Shown piece after piece: positions 23,776 through 30,950 of a stretch of DNA of 32,000 nucleotides (its first letter is position 1; the number at the start of each line of letters is the position of its first letter). The notes beneath the pieces were generated by a model. It did not search any database, was not told the origin of the DNA, and saw only the letters and a list, made by a program, of their open reading frames with translations. Position numbers and translations under genes: made by a program. Source of the stretch: Candidatus Woesearchaeota archaeon (GTDB lineage Archaea > Nanobdellota > Nanobdellia > Pacearchaeales > GW2011-AR1); the NCBI GenBank assembly GCA_964497435.1, contig CAZCCD010000008.1, forward strand, positions 15,017 to 47,016, in the 5' to 3' direction.

Positions 23776-25707
23776 TTAACATCTTTGTCCTAATCTATTT
23801 CTAACCTCACTAACATCATTAAATGTAATAAACCCATCTGTGTTAATATCCAAATGTCCTCTACCTGTTAATGATTGTCCTTGATTATAAATAACTAATG
23901 CTAAATCAATAATATTTATGATTAAATCATCGTTTACATCTGCTTGAGCACAAGTCACTATGGGAATTCCAGGATTATATTCATACGCTCCAATGTCAGG
24001 AGCACTGCCGTACCATTCACGACAACCAGAACTATTAGGCCCTGGAGATGTACAGTGATATCCTTGAATCCAAGTTCCATTATCTATTGCAGGAGAGTTA
24101 GGGGCTGGTCTTAAGAAGTCTGGTGAGGAAGGGTTTGTCGAGAGGAATTGGGGATTAAGATTTAACGAGTTACTATCTAAACCTCCAGAACCAGAAACCC
24201 AACTAGCCAATGTATTGTAATTAGTTCCCAAATATCTAAAAAGAAGTGGTGATGATGGGTTGTAAAATAAATTATAATCAGAATCTAAGATAGTTCCAAC
24301 ATCCCAATATTCAATTTGATCTGTCGTCTCATTATAAATTATGTTATTTTTAAATTCAATATCTGTTAAATTTCCACCTCTAGCAAACAATCCTATACCC
24401 GCTCTATTATATACTGTGTTATGTCTTATTTTTGCATTTCTCACATTGTCCCCAACAAAAAAGTCTGCATACCCATACCCTGTTAAAGTTCCATAGTATA
24501 TTATGTTTCCTTCAATCAACAAACCATTAAGGTCCCATGCAATAGTCATAAATGTGAACTCTTTACTATTATGAATAATATTATTTCTGAATGTAACGTT
24601 AGAATTTAGTCTCTTTATAGGGAAACCTCCAATATTATAAAATTCATTTCCTTCAATCAAAGCACCATCTGTTCCATATAGTACTATTCCATCACCACTA
24701 TGTCCCTGTGAATTGCTTAATGCCGGGCCCATATCACTTCCTGTATCATGAATTGTATTATTTATCACTTTTAATCCTGGTTGAGGATCAGAGTGTCCAC
24801 GGAATACTCCTGCAGGATTTTGCCCAACTGTTCCATCTCCTGAAACCCACCCTATATCATTATTAATTACACTTATATATGTTTGACCTCCAGAAAAAGC
24901 AACTCCGTCAGATAAACTATGTCTAATAGTTAAATTTTGTATTGTAAAATAATCAAAATTATAATCAAATCCCGGAGGATAAGGATCCCAAGAAGACCAT
25001 GCAGCAACTCTTCTTGAAGAGCATTCAATAGTGTGTGTATTTGGATTGTCTGAGTTAAAAGGATAAATATAAATTCTGCCAGGTATCTGGTCATAATAAT
25101 ACTGGCCAGGAGAAGTTATATTTGGAACCCCAATACTTGCATCAAAATATTGGCTAACCAAATCAGGTCTTAAATACCAATTAACCGTATTCCCAGTGTA
25201 CTCCCAACAATCTGTCGTATTCATCATACAATTAAAATTACTCCCAAAAACAAAACAATAAGAACTTCTTCCTAAAAGAGATAAATCTTGTGTATATTCT
25301 TCTTCTCTTGTTTGCTCTGGATAAAAATTAGCATACCAAACATTTGTTGATGTGCAAGGATCAATTGCCGGATTACATTGTGTCCAGCCAGTCACATTTT
25401 CACTTCCTAAAAGTACAACTTGATTTCTATCTCCATAACCAGAATATACTGTATATTGGCTTGGAGTTCCTCCTTTTGGAAATAACATCTCTCTATACTC
25501 CCCAGGCATTATGTAAACAGTATCACCTCCAGCATGTCTTGTGTTGGCTGCTGAAATATTACATAGTGGTATTGCTAAAGTTCCTGGACCAGCATCATTA
25601 CATGAAGGATTTGTATTGCTTACATACCAAGTTGCAGCAGAAACAAAGTTTAGATTTACAAATAAGAATCCTAATACAAAAATCAACATTATCAGCTTTT
25701 TTAACAT
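23776..25707 (-). CDS. secreted right-handed parallel beta-helix protein with C-terminal dockerin-like module
   Basis: Signal peptide MLKKLIMLIFVLGFLFVNLNFVSA. Start-of-helix motif WYVSNTNPSCNDAGPGT...GDTVYIMPGEY. Many NNxI/HNxV beta-helix turns. End motif SPAIDNG...DIGAYEY. The last 58 aa are C-x3-DVNDDLIINIIDLALVIYNQG...DINTDGFITFNDVSEVRNRLG-x2-C, two dockerin-type Ca-binding repeats. Confidence 0.8.
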   Translation of the reverse strand: MLKKLIMLIFVLGFLFVNLNFVSAATWYVSNTNPSCNDAGPGTLAIPLCNISAANTRHAGGDTVYIMPGEYREMLFPKGGTPSQYTVYSGYGDRNQVVLLGSENVTGWTQCNPAIDPCTSTNVWYANFYPEQTREEEYTQDLSLLGRSSYCFVFGSNFNCMMNTTDCWEYTGNTVNWYLRPDLVSQYFDASIGVPNITSPGQYYYDQIPGRIYIYPFNSDNPNTHTIECSSRRVAAWSSWDPYPPGFDYNFDYFTIQNLTIRHSLSDGVAFSGGQTYISVINNDIGWVSGDGTVGQNPAGVFRGHSDPQPGLKVINNTIHDTGSDMGPALSNSQGHSGDGIVLYGTDGALIEGNEFYNIGGFPIKRLNSNVTFRNNIIHNSKEFTFMTIAWDLNGLLIEGNIIYYGTLTGYGYADFFVGDNVRNAKIRHNTVYNRAGIGLFARGGNLTDIEFKNNIIYNETTDQIEYWDVGTILDSDYNLFYNPSSPLLFRYLGTNYNTLASWVSGSGGLDSNSLNLNPQFLSTNPSSPDFLRPAPNSPAIDNGTWIQGYHCTSPGPNSSGCREWYGSAPDIGAYEYNPGIPIVTCAQADVNDDLIINIIDLALVIYNQGQSLTGRGHLDINTDGFITFNDVSEVRNRLGQRC

Positions 25708-28700
25708 GTTTGTCCCAACCTATTCCTTACTTCACTAACATCTTGATAATTTATAACAGAGTCTTGACTATTAACATTTAAATGAGCTCTTCCTGTTAAT
25801 GGCTGTCCTTGATTGTAAATTACTAATGCCAAATCAATAATATTAACAATTAAATCATCATTGACATCTGCAGTTTGACAGGTTATTGAAGGAGGTTGAA
25901 CACCTCCACCCATTAATCCAATTTCATAACCAGGATTATCACTTATCCATGCTCCTCTAAAATATCCATCTGTTGCAGGAGTTCTACATGGAGAAGTTGG
26001 AGTAAGTTTAAAATCGTTAGGTGTAAGACCTCCAGGATTAACAAACTGATCTGTTGTTATTAAACTATTTAAATCATAGCCCTGTGCTCTTATCTCTGCA
26101 AGTGTTCTTGAATTAGTTTGCTGTAAATAAAAATTATCTAAAGAAAAACAATTATAATTAGAATCATTCATCCAGGAATTGTCTTGTAAATAAATCATTC
26201 TCGTGCCTTGAACAGCATTATCTCTAAACCTGTTTCCTGATGCATTTTCATCCACATAATCAATTGTTGCATAACCTGTACCAACATTGTAAAATGTATT
26301 ATGTATGTATGTATTATTTTCATAAAGTCTATCAAACTCCCACTGAGTTCCAACACATCCTGCAGCTCTTTGTCCATGAGGATCCTCAACACCATTTGGA
26401 GAATTAGTAATAATATTTTGATAGACTCTTGCATTGTCAGTTCCCATGCTTATACCGTATCTATACATATCATGAATATAATTTCTATAAATCTCAATTT
26501 TTGGTGTATCTCCTGGCTCAGGACAAGCAGCGGTTTTATATCTAATTCCAGTGTTAAAATTATAAATTTCATTATTGTAAATTTTGTGGTTATTTGATTC
26601 AAACATCATTATTCCTGGATTATTATGGAAAGGTTCTCCTACTTTGAATCCGTCATGGATAGTATTATTTCTTATAGTTGTATTATAATTCCACTCACTC
26701 ATTTTAATTCCTGCAGGATTTCCTCCAGCTCCCCCGCAGTGGTGTATGTCATTGTTTTGGATTAATACATTAGTAGCATATTCATGCAACCAGATACATG
26801 AATGTTCTTTTCCATCTGTTGTATTATAATCTCTTATTTCCAAACCCTCAATTGTCCAATTATCTATAAATTCTAATTTAATAACACTCATAGACTCTCC
26901 TTCAGCATCTAAAATTGGATGATGTCCTGGATAAGCTTTTATTCTTACATTATCTGCAGCTGGATAAGCACCAGTATTCATTGAAGCAGCATCACCGCCA
27001 TAAAAAAAGACACCCATTCTTGAATTAAATCCACTACAACCCGCATTATTACCATTTGGGATAGAAGTATTAATTACCCCATCCATAATATAAACAACAT
27101 CATTTGTTGCTAAAGGTGTCCAACCAGGAGGAACGTTTCCCAAACATCCAACATAATATGAATTTATGTTATTAAATGTCTTCCAAGGTCTACTAAAAGA
27201 TCCATTTCCTGTTGCATCATTTCCATTTACTGGGTCTATGTAACGACATCTTCCACCTTGAGTTGCTTCGCAAGTAACACCACCTAAAGGATTATACTCA
27301 TAAGCTCCTATATCGGGAGCAGAGCCATACCATTCACGACAACCAGATGAATTTGGTCCTGCTGATGCACAATGATATCCAGGAATAACTACACCAGCGT
27401 CGATAGCTGGAGAGGTTAAAGGATTTGGCCTTAAAAAATCAGGCGATGAAGGATTTGTTGAGAGGAACTGAGGGTTTAGTTGTTTAGAATTAATTTCTAA
27501 ATCAGGTCTTAATGTTCTAAACTCCGATAAAGTGTAGTGTGCATCTGAAGGATTTGCGCATTCACTAAATGCACCACTGTAGTCAGTACACCAAAATATA
27601 ACATCATTCTCAAAACTGTCATAATAAAGATTGTTGCTAGAGTTATATTCTGGAACTAACTGATTCCAAAACACAGCAGTGTTTTCCGGAGGACCACTAC
27701 CTCCTCCAAAATTTACTATTATGTTATTAAAAGAAGATACATTTTTAATCTCAGACCCTTGAGAAGATTTAAGCAGTATTCCCGTGTTAAATTCGTAAAA
27801 TGCATTGTTAAATATTTTGACATCATGTATAATGTCTTGGTCATAATTTCCCCCACTGGCACCGCAAGATTGAAATACATCATTATGGAGAAATACTCCA
27901 ACATTCCATATCCCATAAAAAATATTTTCATAAATATCTGCTTTTCCAGCTTCATGAGAATTTGAGCCATAATCACAATTTAATCTGTATGCTTCACCAG
28001 CATTAATGTATTTATTTCCTCTGACAGTAGTTCTTCCTGGAGTTCCTACTCTAGTCGAACCTTTAAATGATGTTCCTGCAGGCACATCCTGAAAAATATT
28101 GTCCTCAATGGTTGCATTATTATGCCGATATATAACTATCGCCCCGCAATTCATAGCTCCACACATACCACTTCCATCAGACTCGTGTGTTACGTTATAT
28201 ATGTAATTTCCCCTTATGAGTAGATTTGTAGTATCTCCACCCTCGTCTGGTACACGCAATCCAGCATGGTTACTGCCTCCACTTCCCACAGTATCGTGTA
28301 CAACAGAATCTTGAACAGTAACTCCAATTGATGGCCCTACAATTATTCCTCCTCCAAAGCACTGTGTAAATTCCATATGGTCTGTAGTAACATAATTAGT
28401 AAGGCCGGCGCATCTATTCCAATAATCTCCATCATAAGATGAAAGCAATATAGAATTTGTTGGACCGTTATGTTTTCCCATTACTATCGTCCTTGGATAA
28501 TCTGGATGCCCTTTGAATATTGTTGGATTTCCCAGAGTCCCGCCATTCTGAGGTCGCATGGTCATTCCCACTCCTCCTTCACCACCCTCTATAGGCGCTT
28601 CATTGTAAACTCCTCCTAAAAAAATAACAATATTTCCTGACAGAGCTGTATTTGCCTTTCCCATTGTGCACCACGGCTGTGCATATGTTCCAGCCCCAGC

Positions 28701-28928
28701 ATCGCTACAACTCGGATTTATATTATTTACATATCTAAAAGTTCCCGCAGGACAACTACTATAATAATCCCCCCTAAACCACACCCCATTTGCTCCATTT
28801 CCAGTATCACAACAATAACCGCTTCCATCAGGATATGTTTGACTTCCGCAGGAGATGACGGCTGAGACAGAGTTCAAATTAACTAAAAAAATTCCTAAAA
28901 ATAAAATTAAACTCACCAACTTTTTCAT
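25701..28928 (-). CDS. secreted protein with two tandem right-handed beta-helix modules and C-terminal dockerin-like module
   Basis: Signal peptide MKKLVSLILFLGIFLVNLNSVSA, then a Cys-rich N-terminus. Module 1 ends ...LNPQFLSTNPSSPDFLRPNPLTSPAIDAG...DIGAYEYNP. Module 2 begins RYIDPVNGNDATGNGSFSRPWKTF. The last ~59 aa (CQTADVNDDLIVNIIDLALVIYNQG...VNSQDSVINYQDVSEVRNRLGQTC) are a paralog of the downstream gene's dockerin. Its stop overlaps the next gene's start as ATGTTAA. Confidence 0.8.
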   Translation of the reverse strand: MKKLVSLILFLGIFLVNLNSVSAVISCGSQTYPDGSGYCCDTGNGANGVWFRGDYYSSCPAGTFRYVNNINPSCSDAGAGTYAQPWCTMGKANTALSGNIVIFLGGVYNEAPIEGGEGGVGMTMRPQNGGTLGNPTIFKGHPDYPRTIVMGKHNGPTNSILLSSYDGDYWNRCAGLTNYVTTDHMEFTQCFGGGIIVGPSIGVTVQDSVVHDTVGSGGSNHAGLRVPDEGGDTTNLLIRGNYIYNVTHESDGSGMCGAMNCGAIVIYRHNNATIEDNIFQDVPAGTSFKGSTRVGTPGRTTVRGNKYINAGEAYRLNCDYGSNSHEAGKADIYENIFYGIWNVGVFLHNDVFQSCGASGGNYDQDIIHDVKIFNNAFYEFNTGILLKSSQGSEIKNVSSFNNIIVNFGGGSGPPENTAVFWNQLVPEYNSSNNLYYDSFENDVIFWCTDYSGAFSECANPSDAHYTLSEFRTLRPDLEINSKQLNPQFLSTNPSSPDFLRPNPLTSPAIDAGVVIPGYHCASAGPNSSGCREWYGSAPDIGAYEYNPLGGVTCEATQGGRCRYIDPVNGNDATGNGSFSRPWKTFNNINSYYVGCLGNVPPGWTPLATNDVVYIMDGVINTSIPNGNNAGCSGFNSRMGVFFYGGDAASMNTGAYPAADNVRIKAYPGHHPILDAEGESMSVIKLEFIDNWTIEGLEIRDYNTTDGKEHSCIWLHEYATNVLIQNNDIHHCGGAGGNPAGIKMSEWNYNTTIRNNTIHDGFKVGEPFHNNPGIMMFESNNHKIYNNEIYNFNTGIRYKTAACPEPGDTPKIEIYRNYIHDMYRYGISMGTDNARVYQNIITNSPNGVEDPHGQRAAGCVGTQWEFDRLYENNTYIHNTFYNVGTGYATIDYVDENASGNRFRDNAVQGTRMIYLQDNSWMNDSNYNCFSLDNFYLQQTNSRTLAEIRAQGYDLNSLITTDQFVNPGGLTPNDFKLTPTSPCRTPATDGYFRGAWISDNPGYEIGLMGGGVQPPSITCQTADVNDDLIVNIIDLALVIYNQGQPLTGRAHLNVNSQDSVINYQDVSEVRNRLGQTC

Positions 28929-30590: not shown

Positions 30591-30950
30591 TTAAGGGCAA
30601 TAAGATTCATTGGTTTTTTCTATTTCACATTTATTATTTATGCAAATTGGTTTTCCACATCCGCAATCTAAGATGCTTTGACAAACAGTTGTGCAAGCAA
30701 TATTAGAACAATCGGGGGCATAATTTTTATTGACAACCTCACTAGCATGACAACAAGTTGCTGAAACACAATCTTCATCTACTTCACAATATTTCTCTTC
30801 CGGACCAAAAACATCATTATCCCCAATCAAATCTCTGTTTCTGTCTTTAAATTCAGAATCAACCTTATCTCTAAGATAAATTATAGAAAACATAATTGAG
30901 AACAATACGAATGCAACAGAAAAACTAACAAAAACCCACCATAATTTCAT
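30591..30950 (-). CDS. membrane-anchored Cys-rich extracellular protein
   Basis: N-terminal TM/signal anchor (LWWVFVSFSVAFVLFSIMFSIIYL), then 14 Cys in the last ~65 aa (CEVDEDCVSATCCH...CSNIACTTVCQSILDCGCGKPICINNKCE...YCP). Confidence 0.5.
   Translation of the reverse strand: MKLWWVFVSFSVAFVLFSIMFSIIYLRDKVDSEFKDRNRDLIGDNDVFGPEEKYCEVDEDCVSATCCHASEVVNKNYAPDCSNIACTTVCQSILDCGCGKPICINNKCEIEKTNESYCP

What the first reader, a model, noticed from the sequence alone, without database searches (positions are those of the whole stretch)
23776..28928. Translationally coupled pair of secreted beta-helix proteins that both end in dockerin-like modules, with no cohesin in sight
Two adjacent minus-strand genes (1075 aa then 643 aa) overlap as ATGTTAA. 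Both have near-identical style signal peptides, right-handed parallel beta-helix repeats of the polysaccharide lyase/hydrolase or adhesin type, and the typical SPAIDxG...DIGAYEY closing motif. Each ends in a ~58-aa module with two EF-hand-like dockerin repeats (DVNDDLI(I/V)NIIDLALVIYNQG and D/N-x-N-x-D-x-x-I-x-x-x-DVSEVRNRLG) bracketed by a Cys at each end. Dockerins imply a cohesin-bearing partner, and none is recognisable in this window. In a DPANN-type episymbiont the partner could be on the symbiont's own surface or on the host. That would make this a candidate cell-cell attachment or host cell-wall remodelling system rather than a classical cellulosome. The genes are visibly more GC-rich than the flanks (locally up to ~45-48% vs ~25%). 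This comes partly from G/N/P/S/T-rich composition and possibly from foreign origin. Neighbours are also surface-related: the beta-barrel-like protein, the PepSY protein and a divergent membrane plus wHTH pair.
Basis: partly seen in the sequence, partly recalled or inferred. Interest (0 to 1): 0.7.

Follow-up and report, generated by a model that had tools for sequence, protein, structure and literature searches.

The report
Dockerin-tagged beta-helix proteins of a DPANN archaeon
Two overlapping genes of a tiny DPANN-type archaeon encode secreted beta-helix proteins that each end in a real dockerin "plug"; the matching cohesin "socket" is absent from this window but sits next to similar genes in related archaea, on a protein with its own membrane anchor, so these proteins are probably displayed on the archaeon's own surface.

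Summary
Two minus-strand genes (A, 1075 aa; B, 643 aa) overlap in ATGTTAA. Both have signal peptides, right-handed beta-helix domains and a C-terminal 58-59-aa dockerin with a Cys at each end. B passes Pfam's dockerin threshold. A's module, modelled alone (pLDDT 89), matches only dockerins among solved structures. The window is archaeal, and its ValRS is closest to Nanoarchaeota/Pacearchaeota genomes. No cohesin is in the window, by Pfam or by a lineage-specific model. Cohesins do lie beside genes with this dockerin subtype in related low-GC contigs. L091/L092 has a 311-aa protein (signal peptide, cohesin, C-terminal membrane helix) next to at least six dockerin-bearing genes. In L090 a protease-dockerin-cohesin protein directly precedes a 40%-identical homologue of B. 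L086 has a dockerin gene followed by a cohesin gene. So the partner is most likely encoded by the archaeon itself, not the host. The extra GC sits in codon positions 1-2 (GC3 0.19-0.20, as in neighbouring genes), so it reflects amino-acid composition, not foreign origin. The closest folds are beta-helix glycosidases and phage depolymerases; the substrate is unknown. I file this as a new member of the known non-cellulosomal cohesin-dockerin kind, which I did not find described for DPANN.

The parts
25701..28928 (-). Gene A: 1075-aa secreted protein with a signal peptide, a Cys-rich insert, two right-handed beta-helix domains and a dockerin
   Evidence: ORF. Pfam NosD 24 bits and Dockerin_1 14.1 bits. 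The two-domain junction '...DIGAYEYNPLGGVTCEATQGGRCRYID...' is shared with P0005 and P0008.
28860..28928 (-). Signal peptide of A (aa 1-23, MKKLVSLILFLGIFLVNLNSVSA)
   Evidence: Read directly from the sequence. No signal-peptide predictor was run.
27291..28742 (-). Beta-helix domain 1 of A (aa ~63-546), closed by SPAIDAG...DIGAYEY
   Evidence: The cap is 53% identical to B's cap over 136 aa. choice_anch_Q below threshold at 505-546. Motif positions.
25899..27272 (-). Beta-helix domain 2 of A (aa ~553-1010)
   Evidence: NosD hit at 716-848. 32% identity to the core of B over 423 aa.
25704..25880 (-). Dockerin of A (aa 1017-1075), with a Cys at each end; the second Ca loop is non-canonical
   Evidence: AlphaFold2 pLDDT 89. 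The top 14 Foldseek PDB matches are all dockerins, led by 2ozn_B at TM 0.72 and rmsd 1.5 A. 74% identical to B's module.
25701..25707 (-). 7-nt overlap ATGTTAA between the stop of A and the start of B
23776..25707 (-). Gene B: 643-aa secreted protein with a signal peptide, one beta-helix domain and a dockerin
   Evidence: ORF. Pfam Beta_helix 1.4e-17 and Dockerin_1 26.8 bits. AlphaFold2 model.
25636..25707 (-). Signal peptide of B (aa 1-24)
   Evidence: Read directly from the sequence.
23977..25635 (-). Beta-helix domain of B (aa 25-577)
   Evidence: Block-mean pLDDT mostly 70-97 over 25-540, with a few blocks at 53-67. Foldseek PDB: GH120 3vst 1.3e-11, BT_1002 5mqp 1.5e-10, GH136, GH110 and capsule lyases. 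PDB sequence match to 3vst 2.5e-9.
23779..23952 (-). Dockerin of B (aa 586-643), with a Cys at each end and two canonical EF-hand-like loops (DVNDDLIINIID and DINTDGFITFND)
   Evidence: Pfam Dockerin_1 26.8 bits against a gathering score of 22.9, E 6.1e-6. Alignment A2.

Best explanation
A and B are co-transcribed cargo subunits of a non-cellulosomal cohesin-dockerin surface-display system in a DPANN archaeon (Nanoarchaeota in the broad sense).

Proposed mechanism, with the status of each step:
1. Both proteins are exported through Sec-type signal peptides. (Signal peptides are read from the sequence; export is inferred.)
2. Each folds into right-handed beta-helix domains of the type found in glycan-cleaving enzymes. 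(The fold is shown; activity is inferred.)
3. Each ends in a Ca-dependent dockerin. Its N- and C-terminal Cys residues probably form a disulfide at the position of the known dockerin 'clasp'. (The dockerin fold is shown; the disulfide is inferred.)
4. The dockerin plugs into a cohesin on a membrane-anchored protein that the archaeon encodes elsewhere in its genome. (Inferred from relatives; not seen in this window.)
5. The enzymes are therefore held on the archaeon's own surface, alongside other dockerin-tagged hydrolases such as peptidases, where they can act on extracellular or host-envelope glycans. (The varied set of dockerin carriers is shown in relatives; the target is speculative.)
For: Dockerin identity:
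- Pfam Dockerin_1 is above threshold for B.
- A's module modelled alone has pLDDT 89, and its 14 best PDB matches are all dockerins from cohesin-dockerin complexes.
- Peptide stretches identical between A and B are only 73-75% identical in DNA, which indicates purifying selection rather than recent gene conversion.

A dockerin family with varied cargo:
- An exhaustive profile search found 563 cluster representatives with this dockerin subtype.
- Of the 146 best, 116 carry it at the C-terminus and 101 of 121 full-length ones have an N-terminal hydrophobic segment.
- The carriers include Beta_helix proteins, S8/C11/C1/M64/M6 peptidases, FG-GAP, Laminin_G_3, CBM96 and GH123.

Cohesins encoded next to this dockerin subtype:
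- L091/L092 is a 32%-GC contig with L7Ae/S28e/L24e genes. It encodes a 311-aa protein with a signal peptide, a cohesin (Pfam 39.0 bits against 24.1) and a C-terminal TM helix with a Lys/Arg tail. At least six dockerin-bearing genes follow, including beta-helix proteins. Their dockerins are mostly 41-54% identical to those of A and B.
- In L090, P0155 has the order S8, FG-GAP, dockerin, cohesin (Pfam 32.6 bits), dockerin. It lies directly upstream of a homologue of B (40% identity over 634 aa, E 1e-117) that itself begins a dockerin at the contig end. The HTH_45 gene pair of L090 is homologous to window 20166-21114.
- In L086 a dockerin gene is followed 79 nt later by a secreted gene with a cohesin (41.2 bits) and the start of a second one.
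- A profile of these cohesins matches only scaffoldin cohesins in the PDB.

The C-terminal module behaves as an interchangeable anchor:
- Family members carry in its place a different Cys-bracketed module, or an N-terminal TM anchor in Patescibacteria.

Glycan-active fold:
- Foldseek hits to GH120, BT_1002, GH136, GH110, capsule lyases and PL9, and to phage tailspikes and depolymerases.
- Profile hits to 9rx2 (3.3e-22) and GH120 (1.4e-17).
- Invariant polar residues inside the helix: E228, the HDxGSDxGP loop, H336 and K365.

Taxonomy.
Against: - No cohesin is present in the 32-kb window, by Pfam or by a lineage-specific HMM. The rest of this genome could not be read.
- The cohesin-bearing loci come from other organisms, and their dockerins are mostly only 41-54% identical to those of A and B. 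Binding specificity is untested.
- A's dockerin is below Pfam's threshold, and its second Ca loop has Asn at position 1 and an extra residue.
- In the full-length model of B the tail has pLDDT below 50.
- No catalytic residues were identified. In the profile alignment the position of the GH120 nucleophile (Asp382, as I recall it) falls on a non-conserved column.
- A surface adhesin (PfbA) is also among the fold matches.
- From my own recollection of Peer et al. 2009, many genomes carry dockerins without cohesins. That paper was not available here.
Confidence: 0.6

Rival explanations
1. The dockerin-like modules work without a cohesin. They would be Ca-binding stabilising or linker modules, or would bind glycan or S-layer directly, and this genome has no cohesin.
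For: No cohesin in the window. Poly-dockerin proteins with no recognisable cohesin exist among the carriers, for example P0151 and P0152. Non-cellulosomal dockerins have been read as adhesins in Omnitrophota (PMC10066038).
Against: Three independent related loci place Pfam-significant cohesins directly beside genes with this dockerin subtype. One of them lies directly upstream of a homologue of B.
Confidence: 0.2
2. The system is a cohesin-dockerin display system as proposed, but A and B are non-catalytic beta-helix adhesins that bind host or matrix glycans rather than cleaving them.
For: The pneumococcal adhesin PfbA is among the fold matches (4mr0, 4.5e-4). No catalytic residues could be assigned. 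The GH120 catalytic positions are not conserved.
Against: The best sequence and fold matches are enzymes: GH120, BT_1002, GH136, GH110, lyases and phage depolymerases. A cluster of invariant polar residues lies in the middle of the helix. Other carriers of this dockerin subtype are mostly hydrolases.
Confidence: 0.25
3. The cohesin partner is on the host cell, so the dockerins mediate symbiont-host docking directly.
For: None from sequence. It is only a logical possibility raised by the absence of a cohesin in the window.
Against: Cohesins of a matching lineage are encoded on the same low-GC archaeal contigs as the dockerin genes. One of them has its own membrane anchor.
Confidence: 0.05
4. 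The two genes are a recent foreign acquisition or an assembly chimera, which would explain the higher GC.
For: Gene GC is 34-36% against 30% for the rest of the window. The family occurs in both DPANN and Patescibacteria at about 33% identity, so ancient transfer between domains is plausible.
Against: GC3 is 0.19-0.20, the same as in the housekeeping genes. The excess lies in codon positions 1-2 and tracks amino-acid composition. Close orthologues with the same dockerin occur in related genomes (P0002, P0154, P0157, P0159).
Confidence: 0.03

Closest known systems
Non-cellulosomal cohesin-dockerin modules of archaea (Archaeoglobus fulgidus; ANME archaea)
   Same: Archaeal secreted proteins carry type-I-like dockerins, and cohesins are encoded in the same genomes, with no role in cellulose degradation. 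The cargo varies (PMC9012536 section 32, citing Bayer 1999, Haimovitz 2008 and Peer 2009).
   Different: Here the lineage is DPANN. The dockerin subtype has a Cys at each end. The cargo is beta-helix glycan-active proteins and peptidases, not the ABC-transporter binding proteins reported for ANME. The anchor seen in a relative is a single cohesin with a C-terminal TM helix. I found no paper describing this for DPANN.
Clostridium perfringens NagH-NagJ cohesin-dockerin complex (PDB 2ozn)
   Same: It is the best structural match to A's dockerin (TM 0.72, rmsd 1.5 A over 56 columns, 30% identity). It is a non-cellulosomal system that joins glycan-degrading enzymes.
   Different: It is bacterial and links two secreted enzymes to each other rather than to a membrane-anchored cohesin. 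Its clasp is electrostatic (Arg-Glu; PMC3821032), not a Cys pair.
Cellulosome of Clostridium thermocellum and C. cellulolyticum
   Same: The logic is the same: signal peptide, catalytic module, then C-terminal dockerin with two Ca-binding repeats. Cohesins sit on an anchoring protein. Dockerin genes are clustered with a cohesin gene in the relatives. The DPANN-type cohesin profile matches the CipC and CipA cohesins.
   Different: No cellulase or hemicellulase families and no CBM3 were found. No large multi-cohesin scaffoldin was seen; the most is two or more cohesins in the truncated L086 gene. Anchoring is by a TM helix rather than by SLH domains or sortase.
Beta-helix glycoside hydrolases GH120 (XylC, 3vst), BT_1002 (5mqp; GH141 as I recall) and GH136 (LnbX); phage tailspike depolymerases
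   Same: The right-handed parallel beta-helix fold is shared. Sequence-level similarity to the N-terminal part of XylC is 2.5e-9, or 1.4e-17 with the family profile. Foldseek E-values range from 1e-11 to 1e-7.
   Different: TM-scores are only 0.3-0.4 and identity 10-14%. The GH120 catalytic Asp and Glu positions are not conserved in the alignment. No CAZy family can be assigned.
Cohesin and dockerin genes in ultra-small CPR bacteria
   Same: These are small-celled, host-dependent lineages from groundwater. Shapirobacterales expresses cohesin and dockerin genes (PMC9123182). Southlakia has an essential dockerin-domain protein that its authors speculate targets host glycans (PMC10633639).
   Different: They are bacterial and have not been linked to this beta-helix family. 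In the Patescibacteria homologues seen here, the beta-helix proteins have N-terminal TM anchors instead of dockerins.

Membership tests
Dockerin type I (Pfam PF00404) | Score at or above Pfam's gathering threshold (22.9 bits) | tested here: met
   B scores 26.8 bits, E 6.1e-6. A scores 14.1 bits, so A alone does not meet it. A is 74% identical to B over the module.
Dockerin type I (Pfam PF00404) | Two tandem segments, each a 12-residue EF-hand-like loop (Asp/Asn at positions 1, 3, 5, 9, 12) followed by a helix | tested here: met
   B has DVNDDLIINIID and DINTDGFITFND, both canonical. A's first loop is canonical. A's second loop, NVNSQDSVINYQD, has Asn at position 1 and one extra residue. This variant is conserved in P0157 and P0159.
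Dockerin type I (Pfam PF00404) | Dockerin fold (two main helices plus Ca loops) | tested here: met
   The AlphaFold2 model of A's module has pLDDT 89, with helices at 21-29 and 52-60. The top 14 PDB matches are all dockerins, with TM 0.55-0.74.
Dockerin type I (Pfam PF00404) | Ca2+-dependent binding to a cognate cohesin | not testable with these tools
   Needs complex prediction or biochemistry.
Cohesin-dockerin assembly system | A cohesin-bearing partner encoded in the same genome | tested here: inconclusive
   Absent from the window. Present next to the same dockerin subtype in related loci L091/L092, L090 and L086.
Cohesin-dockerin assembly system | Several different proteins share the same dockerin type | tested here: met
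   Two in the window. At least three on one 152-kb contig of a relative (P0002, P0157, P0225). At least six in L091. 563 cluster representatives overall, with varied catalytic domains.
Classical cellulosome | Cargo made of plant-cell-wall glycoside hydrolases (GH5, GH9, GH48 and others) and a multi-cohesin scaffoldin with a CBM3 | tested here: not met
   No such Pfam families in A, B or the 74 best dockerin carriers. Only single or double cohesins were seen.
Right-handed parallel beta-helix / pectin-lyase fold (PF13229) | Pfam match and a predicted beta-helix | tested here: met
   B hits Beta_helix at 1.4e-17 and A hits NosD at 24 bits against 23.6. Model. Fold matches.
GH120 beta-xylosidase | Catalytic nucleophile Asp382 and acid/base Glu405 of XylC (residue numbers from my memory of the XylC structure paper) are conserved | tested here: not met
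   In the profile-to-3vst alignment, Asp382 (LWLDWE) falls on a non-conserved column and Glu405 (FVEVS) lies in a weakly aligned stretch (16 bits). B has no acid at that position. Only the N-terminal 250 residues align significantly.
choice-of-anchor Q domain (NCBIfam NF041518) | Score at or above the curated cut-off (25 bits) | tested here: not met
   22.2 bits for B and 18.6 bits for A, on the SPAID...DIGAYEY motif. The motif is related, but it is interrupted by a GYHC...GC.W insert.
DPANN archaea (Nanoarchaeota in the broad sense) | Archaeal markers, with housekeeping proteins closest to DPANN genomes | tested here: met
   Archaeal RNase P RNA at 123 bits. eRF1, RadA-like, L31e and S19e genes. 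The best named ValRS hits, at 64-69% identity, are Nanoarchaeota, Pacearchaeota, Nanoarchaeia and Nanobdellota MAGs. No phylogenetic tree was built.

The most novel reading that the evidence does not exclude
DPANN archaea of the Pacearchaeota/Woesearchaeota type carry a minimal cohesin-dockerin display system anchored in their own membrane. It would consist of a single cohesin on a TM stalk, adaptor proteins that carry both a cohesin and dockerins, and a disulfide-clasped dockerin subtype. The system would arm the surface of the tiny cell with depolymerase-like beta-helix glycanases and peptidases. The cell would use these to attach to, or open, the envelope of its host. The pair in this window would be two of the cargo enzymes.
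Probability: 0.3. Interest if true: 0.7.

Novelty: new member of a known kind. Interest (0 to 1): 0.5.

Why it matters
How DPANN archaea hold on to their hosts and extract resources from them is largely unknown, and very few of their surface proteins have assignable roles. This finding offers a recognisable plug-and-socket display system with an identifiable membrane anchor and a defined set of dockerin-tagged hydrolases. That gives a short list of proteins to test by binding assays, activity screens on host envelope polymers, metaproteomics and cryo-ET. It also extends non-cellulosomal cohesin-dockerin systems to ultra-small archaea. Finally, it points to a compact dockerin with a probable disulfide clasp, which could be useful as an engineering part.

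Tried and rejected
Searches that failed or were uninformative:
- The word-indexed search with a dockerin profile returned only 8 short fragments, and not even A or B. I replaced it with the exhaustive profile search.
- Exact-protein look-ups failed for every NCBI-sourced protein: B, ValRS, P0002, P0154, P0157 and P0225. The window's own genome and its closest relatives could therefore not be read.
- The scan of genome representatives did not contain the window's genome.
- The metagenome scan with the dockerin profile gave only 7 short loci, although one of them (L086) proved useful.
- Peer et al. 2009 is not held in the library, and no paper mentions PDB 9RX2.

Ideas tested and rejected:
- PHROGs gave no hit for A or B, so there is no sequence-level link to viral families. 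Fold-level similarity to tailspikes remains.
- An HMM built from Firmicute-type cohesins (P0189, P0200 and relatives) found only Firmicute-style proteins. These are not relevant to this lineage.
- The TM-anchored neighbour of the dockerin gene in L089 looked cohesin-like, but it has no Pfam cohesin.
- The wHTH gene next to A is not homologous to the TrmB-type gene inside the L081 beta-helix cluster, so a conserved regulator is not supported.
- I suspected a heparinase-like enzyme in L082 (793 aa), but Pfam finds nothing.
- Gene conversion between A and B is rejected: the identical peptide stretches are only 73-75% identical in DNA.
- Recent foreign origin is rejected on GC3.
- GH120 membership is rejected on the catalytic positions.


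Full report
**What is in the window**

Two minus-strand ORFs lie at 25701..28928 (A, 1075 aa) and 23776..25707 (B, 643 aa). They overlap by the seven bases ATGTTAA, which fits co-transcription and coupled translation. Both begin with very similar hydrophobic signal peptides that end in VSA.

B matches Pfam Beta_helix (1.4e-17) and Dockerin_1 (26.8 bits; gathering score 22.9). A matches NosD (24 bits), and Dockerin_1 only below threshold (14.1 bits).

A has two beta-helix domains. The first (aa ~63-546) ends in the SPAIDAG...DIGAYEY cap, and the second spans aa ~553-1010. B resembles A's first domain in the caps (53% identity over 136 aa) and A's second domain in the core (32% over 423 aa). The same two-domain layout, joined by a CEAT..C motif, recurs in P0005 and P0008.

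The cap motif is related to NCBIfam 'choice-of-anchor Q' but scores below its cut-off.

**Organism**

The window carries an archaeal RNase P RNA (123 bits) and an intron-containing tRNA. It also carries eRF1, a RadA-like ATPase, L31e, S19e, ScpB, ValRS, CysRS and a geranylgeranyl-reductase-like gene.

The best named ValRS relatives, at 64-69% identity, are MAGs labelled Nanoarchaeota, Pacearchaeota, Nanoarchaeia and Nanobdellota. Overall GC is 31%. So 'DPANN-type' is supported. An episymbiotic lifestyle is inferred from taxonomy only.

**GC content**

A and B are 36% and 34.5% GC, against 30% for the rest of the window, with a 200-nt maximum of 48%. Their GC3 (0.20 and 0.19) matches that of every other gene (0.19-0.27). 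The excess lies in codon positions 1 and 2. It follows from about 10-12% Gly, about 10% Asn and only 1-2% Lys, against about 12% Lys in housekeeping proteins. Recent foreign origin is not supported.

**The C-terminal modules are dockerins**

B's module (aa 586-643) has two canonical EF-hand-like loops, DVNDDLIINIID and DINTDGFITFND, each followed by a helix. A's module (aa 1017-1075) is 74% identical. Its second loop, NVNSQDSVINYQD, has Asn at position 1 and one extra residue. Orthologues P0157 and P0159 share this variant.

In the full-length model of B the tail is of low confidence, although two helices appear at the expected places. Modelled alone with eight homologues, A's module reaches pLDDT 89. 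Its 14 best PDB matches are all dockerins taken from cohesin-dockerin complexes. The best is the non-cellulosomal NagH dockerin, 2ozn_B, at TM 0.72 and rmsd 1.5 A.

The stretches that are identical in protein between A and B differ at many synonymous sites (73-75% DNA identity). The modules are therefore conserved by selection, not by recent gene conversion.

The Cys residues sit 2-4 residues before the first Ca loop and at the very C-terminus. That is where known dockerins form a non-covalent 'intramolecular clasp' (PMC3821032). A disulfide clasp is therefore a reasonable inference, but it was not tested.

**The beta-helix family**

The word-indexed search found only 21 relatives of B. The genome-representative scan found full-length relatives in a Micrarchaeota MAG and a Patescibacteria MAG (33% identity), then in Paenibacillus (24%). 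The family is not a widespread protein of free-living archaea.

Its members keep the catalytic-looking core but swap their ends:
- a dockerin (P0002, P0003, P0004, P0013);
- a different ~45-aa Cys-bracketed two-helix module (P0005, P0006, P0008, P0010, P0011, P0014, P0015);
- added F5/8-type-C or metallophosphatase domains;
- in Patescibacteria, an N-terminal TM anchor.

This pattern is what one expects if the terminal module serves for anchoring.

Structurally, B is closest to beta-helix glycosidases: GH120 XylC at 1.3e-11, BT_1002, GH136 and GH110. Capsule lyases, PL9 and phage tailspike depolymerases follow. At the sequence level it matches the N-terminal part of XylC (2.5e-9; 1.4e-17 with the family profile) and an uncharacterised solved beta-helix protein, 9rx2 (3.3e-22).

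The GH120 catalytic positions are not conserved, so no CAZy family can be assigned. Invariant polar residues lie in the middle of the helix: E228, the HDxGSDxGP loop, H336 and K365. They favour an enzyme over a pure adhesin, but this is inference.

**The cohesin question**

No window ORF matches Pfam Cohesin.

An exhaustive profile search with the dockerin found 563 cluster representatives. Among the 146 best:
- 116 carry the module at the C-terminus;
- 43 end in Cys;
- 101 of the 121 full-length ones have an N-terminal hydrophobic segment.

Their other domains are beta-helices, S8/C11/C1/M64/M6 peptidases, FG-GAP, Laminin_G_3, CBM96 and GH123. This is a varied set of dockerin-tagged secreted proteins.

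Three of the 74 scanned carriers also contain a cohesin. Two are Firmicute-type proteins. The third, P0155, is of the low-GC type. It has the order S8 protease, FG-GAP, dockerin (99.6 bits to my profile), cohesin (Pfam 32.6 bits against 24.1), dockerin.

P0155 lies on contig L090. The next gene there is a homologue of B (40% identity over 634 aa, E 1e-117) that begins a dockerin at the contig end. L090 also has an HTH_45 gene pair homologous to window 20166-21114.

Using the P0155 cohesin as a local query, I found a second case in L086 (GC 32%). A dockerin gene there is followed by a secreted protein with a cohesin (Pfam 41.2 bits) and the start of a second cohesin.

A third case is L091/L092 (GC 32%), downstream of archaeal L7Ae, S28e and L24e genes. 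It encodes a 311-aa protein with a signal peptide, a cohesin (Pfam 39.0 bits), a Cys/Gly-rich linker and a C-terminal TM helix with a Lys/Arg tail. After it come:
- a 315-aa protein and a 754-aa beta-helix protein, neither with a detected dockerin;
- a 727-aa dockerin protein that overlaps the 754-aa gene by 4 nt;
- a 91-aa protein that is only a signal peptide plus a dockerin;
- an M14 peptidase with a dockerin-like segment;
- two further dockerin proteins;
- a beta-helix-dockerin protein.

Most of those dockerins are 41-54% identical to those of A and B. A profile of the new cohesins hits only scaffoldin cohesins in the PDB. An HMM built from the four cohesins finds nothing in the window at E <= 5.

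**Interpretation**

The most economical reading is that A and B are cargo of a cohesin-dockerin display system whose anchor is encoded elsewhere in this genome. The anchor would be borne by the archaeon itself and tethered by a TM helix.

- Shown: the dockerin identity, the beta-helix fold, the absence of a cohesin from the window, and the presence of cohesins beside the same dockerin subtype in related archaeal contigs.
- Inferred: that this genome has such a cohesin, that A and B bind it, that they are enzymes, and that their targets are host or matrix glycans.

**Comparison with what is known**

Non-cellulosomal cohesins and dockerins have been known in archaea since Archaeoglobus fulgidus, and they are abundant in ANME archaea (PMC9012536). 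Cohesin and dockerin genes are expressed by a CPR bacterium (PMC9123182). A dockerin protein is essential in an epibiotic Saccharibacterium (PMC10633639).

I found no paper describing such a system in DPANN. The finding is therefore a new member of a known kind. Its modest variant features are the Cys-bracketed dockerin, the single-cohesin TM anchor and the beta-helix plus peptidase cargo.

**Limits**

- The window's own genome and its nearest relatives (NCBI records) could not be read.
- No complex prediction was possible.
- Two fold libraries were unavailable.
- The catalytic mechanism and substrate remain unknown.

Noticed in passing
window 22176-22925 (+): A 249-aa ORF looks like a bacterial outer-membrane beta-barrel protein. 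Its likely start gives the signal peptide MTKSLTRKLLAPILLTGALTLPLTSRAQ, the sequence is beta-rich, and it ends ...GLKKGF with a C-terminal Phe. Pfam OMP_b-brl scores 20.4 bits, below the 28.7 threshold, and there is no PDB sequence hit. GC3 is 0.19, so it looks native. Such a protein is odd in an archaeon with a single membrane.
   Followed up: partly
P0005, P0006, P0008, P0010, P0011, P0014, P0015 (C-termini); L081 7242-9173 and 10001-13345: In these members of the beta-helix family the dockerin is replaced by a different ~45-aa Cys-bracketed two-helix module, C..P.D..PC.CI...EL...I..W..G.ITI..LI.NIK.WK. It has no Pfam match. It may be an alternative docking or anchoring tag.
   Followed up: partly
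window 17872-17976 (-): A 105-nt tRNA was found by Rfam (51 bits) but missed by ARAGORN. It probably contains an intron, as is common in archaea.
   Followed up: no
L091 8827-9102 (also P0213): A 91-aa protein consists only of a signal peptide and a Cys-bracketed dockerin. It lies inside the cohesin-dockerin gene cluster. It could cap or compete for the cohesin.
   Followed up: no
P0151, P0152, P0163, P0169, P0219: These proteins are made largely of tandem dockerins: Pfam counts 4 to 8 copies and my profile finds up to 13 matched stretches. One (P0219) also carries a clostripain-type C11 peptidase.
   Followed up: partly
L002 9785-20490: A Patescibacteria MAG carries four tandem large surface-protein genes (637-993 aa) around the match to the family; the first two have N-terminal membrane anchors and none ends in a dockerin. 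The family is therefore shared between DPANN archaea and CPR bacteria, with different anchoring.
   Followed up: partly
L082 3280-8436: Three consecutive genes: the beta-helix-dockerin protein P0013, a 793-aa secreted protein with no Pfam match, and a 171-aa protein (P0160) that ends in the same dockerin.
   Followed up: partly
window 20166-21114 (+) and L090 111-1083 (-): A pair made of a 227-aa unknown gene and an HTH_45 winged-helix gene is conserved between the window and the cohesin-bearing contig L090 (30% and 49% identity).
   Followed up: partly
L011 8130-11921: A Woesearchaeota MAG has a tandem pair: a 556-aa protein with an N-terminal dockerin-like repeat right after its signal peptide, followed by a 687-aa beta-helix protein with a C-terminal dockerin of another subtype.
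   Followed up: no
window 30591-30950 (-): A 119-aa protein with an N-terminal membrane segment and a Cys-rich extracellular domain, with no Pfam match.
   Followed up: no
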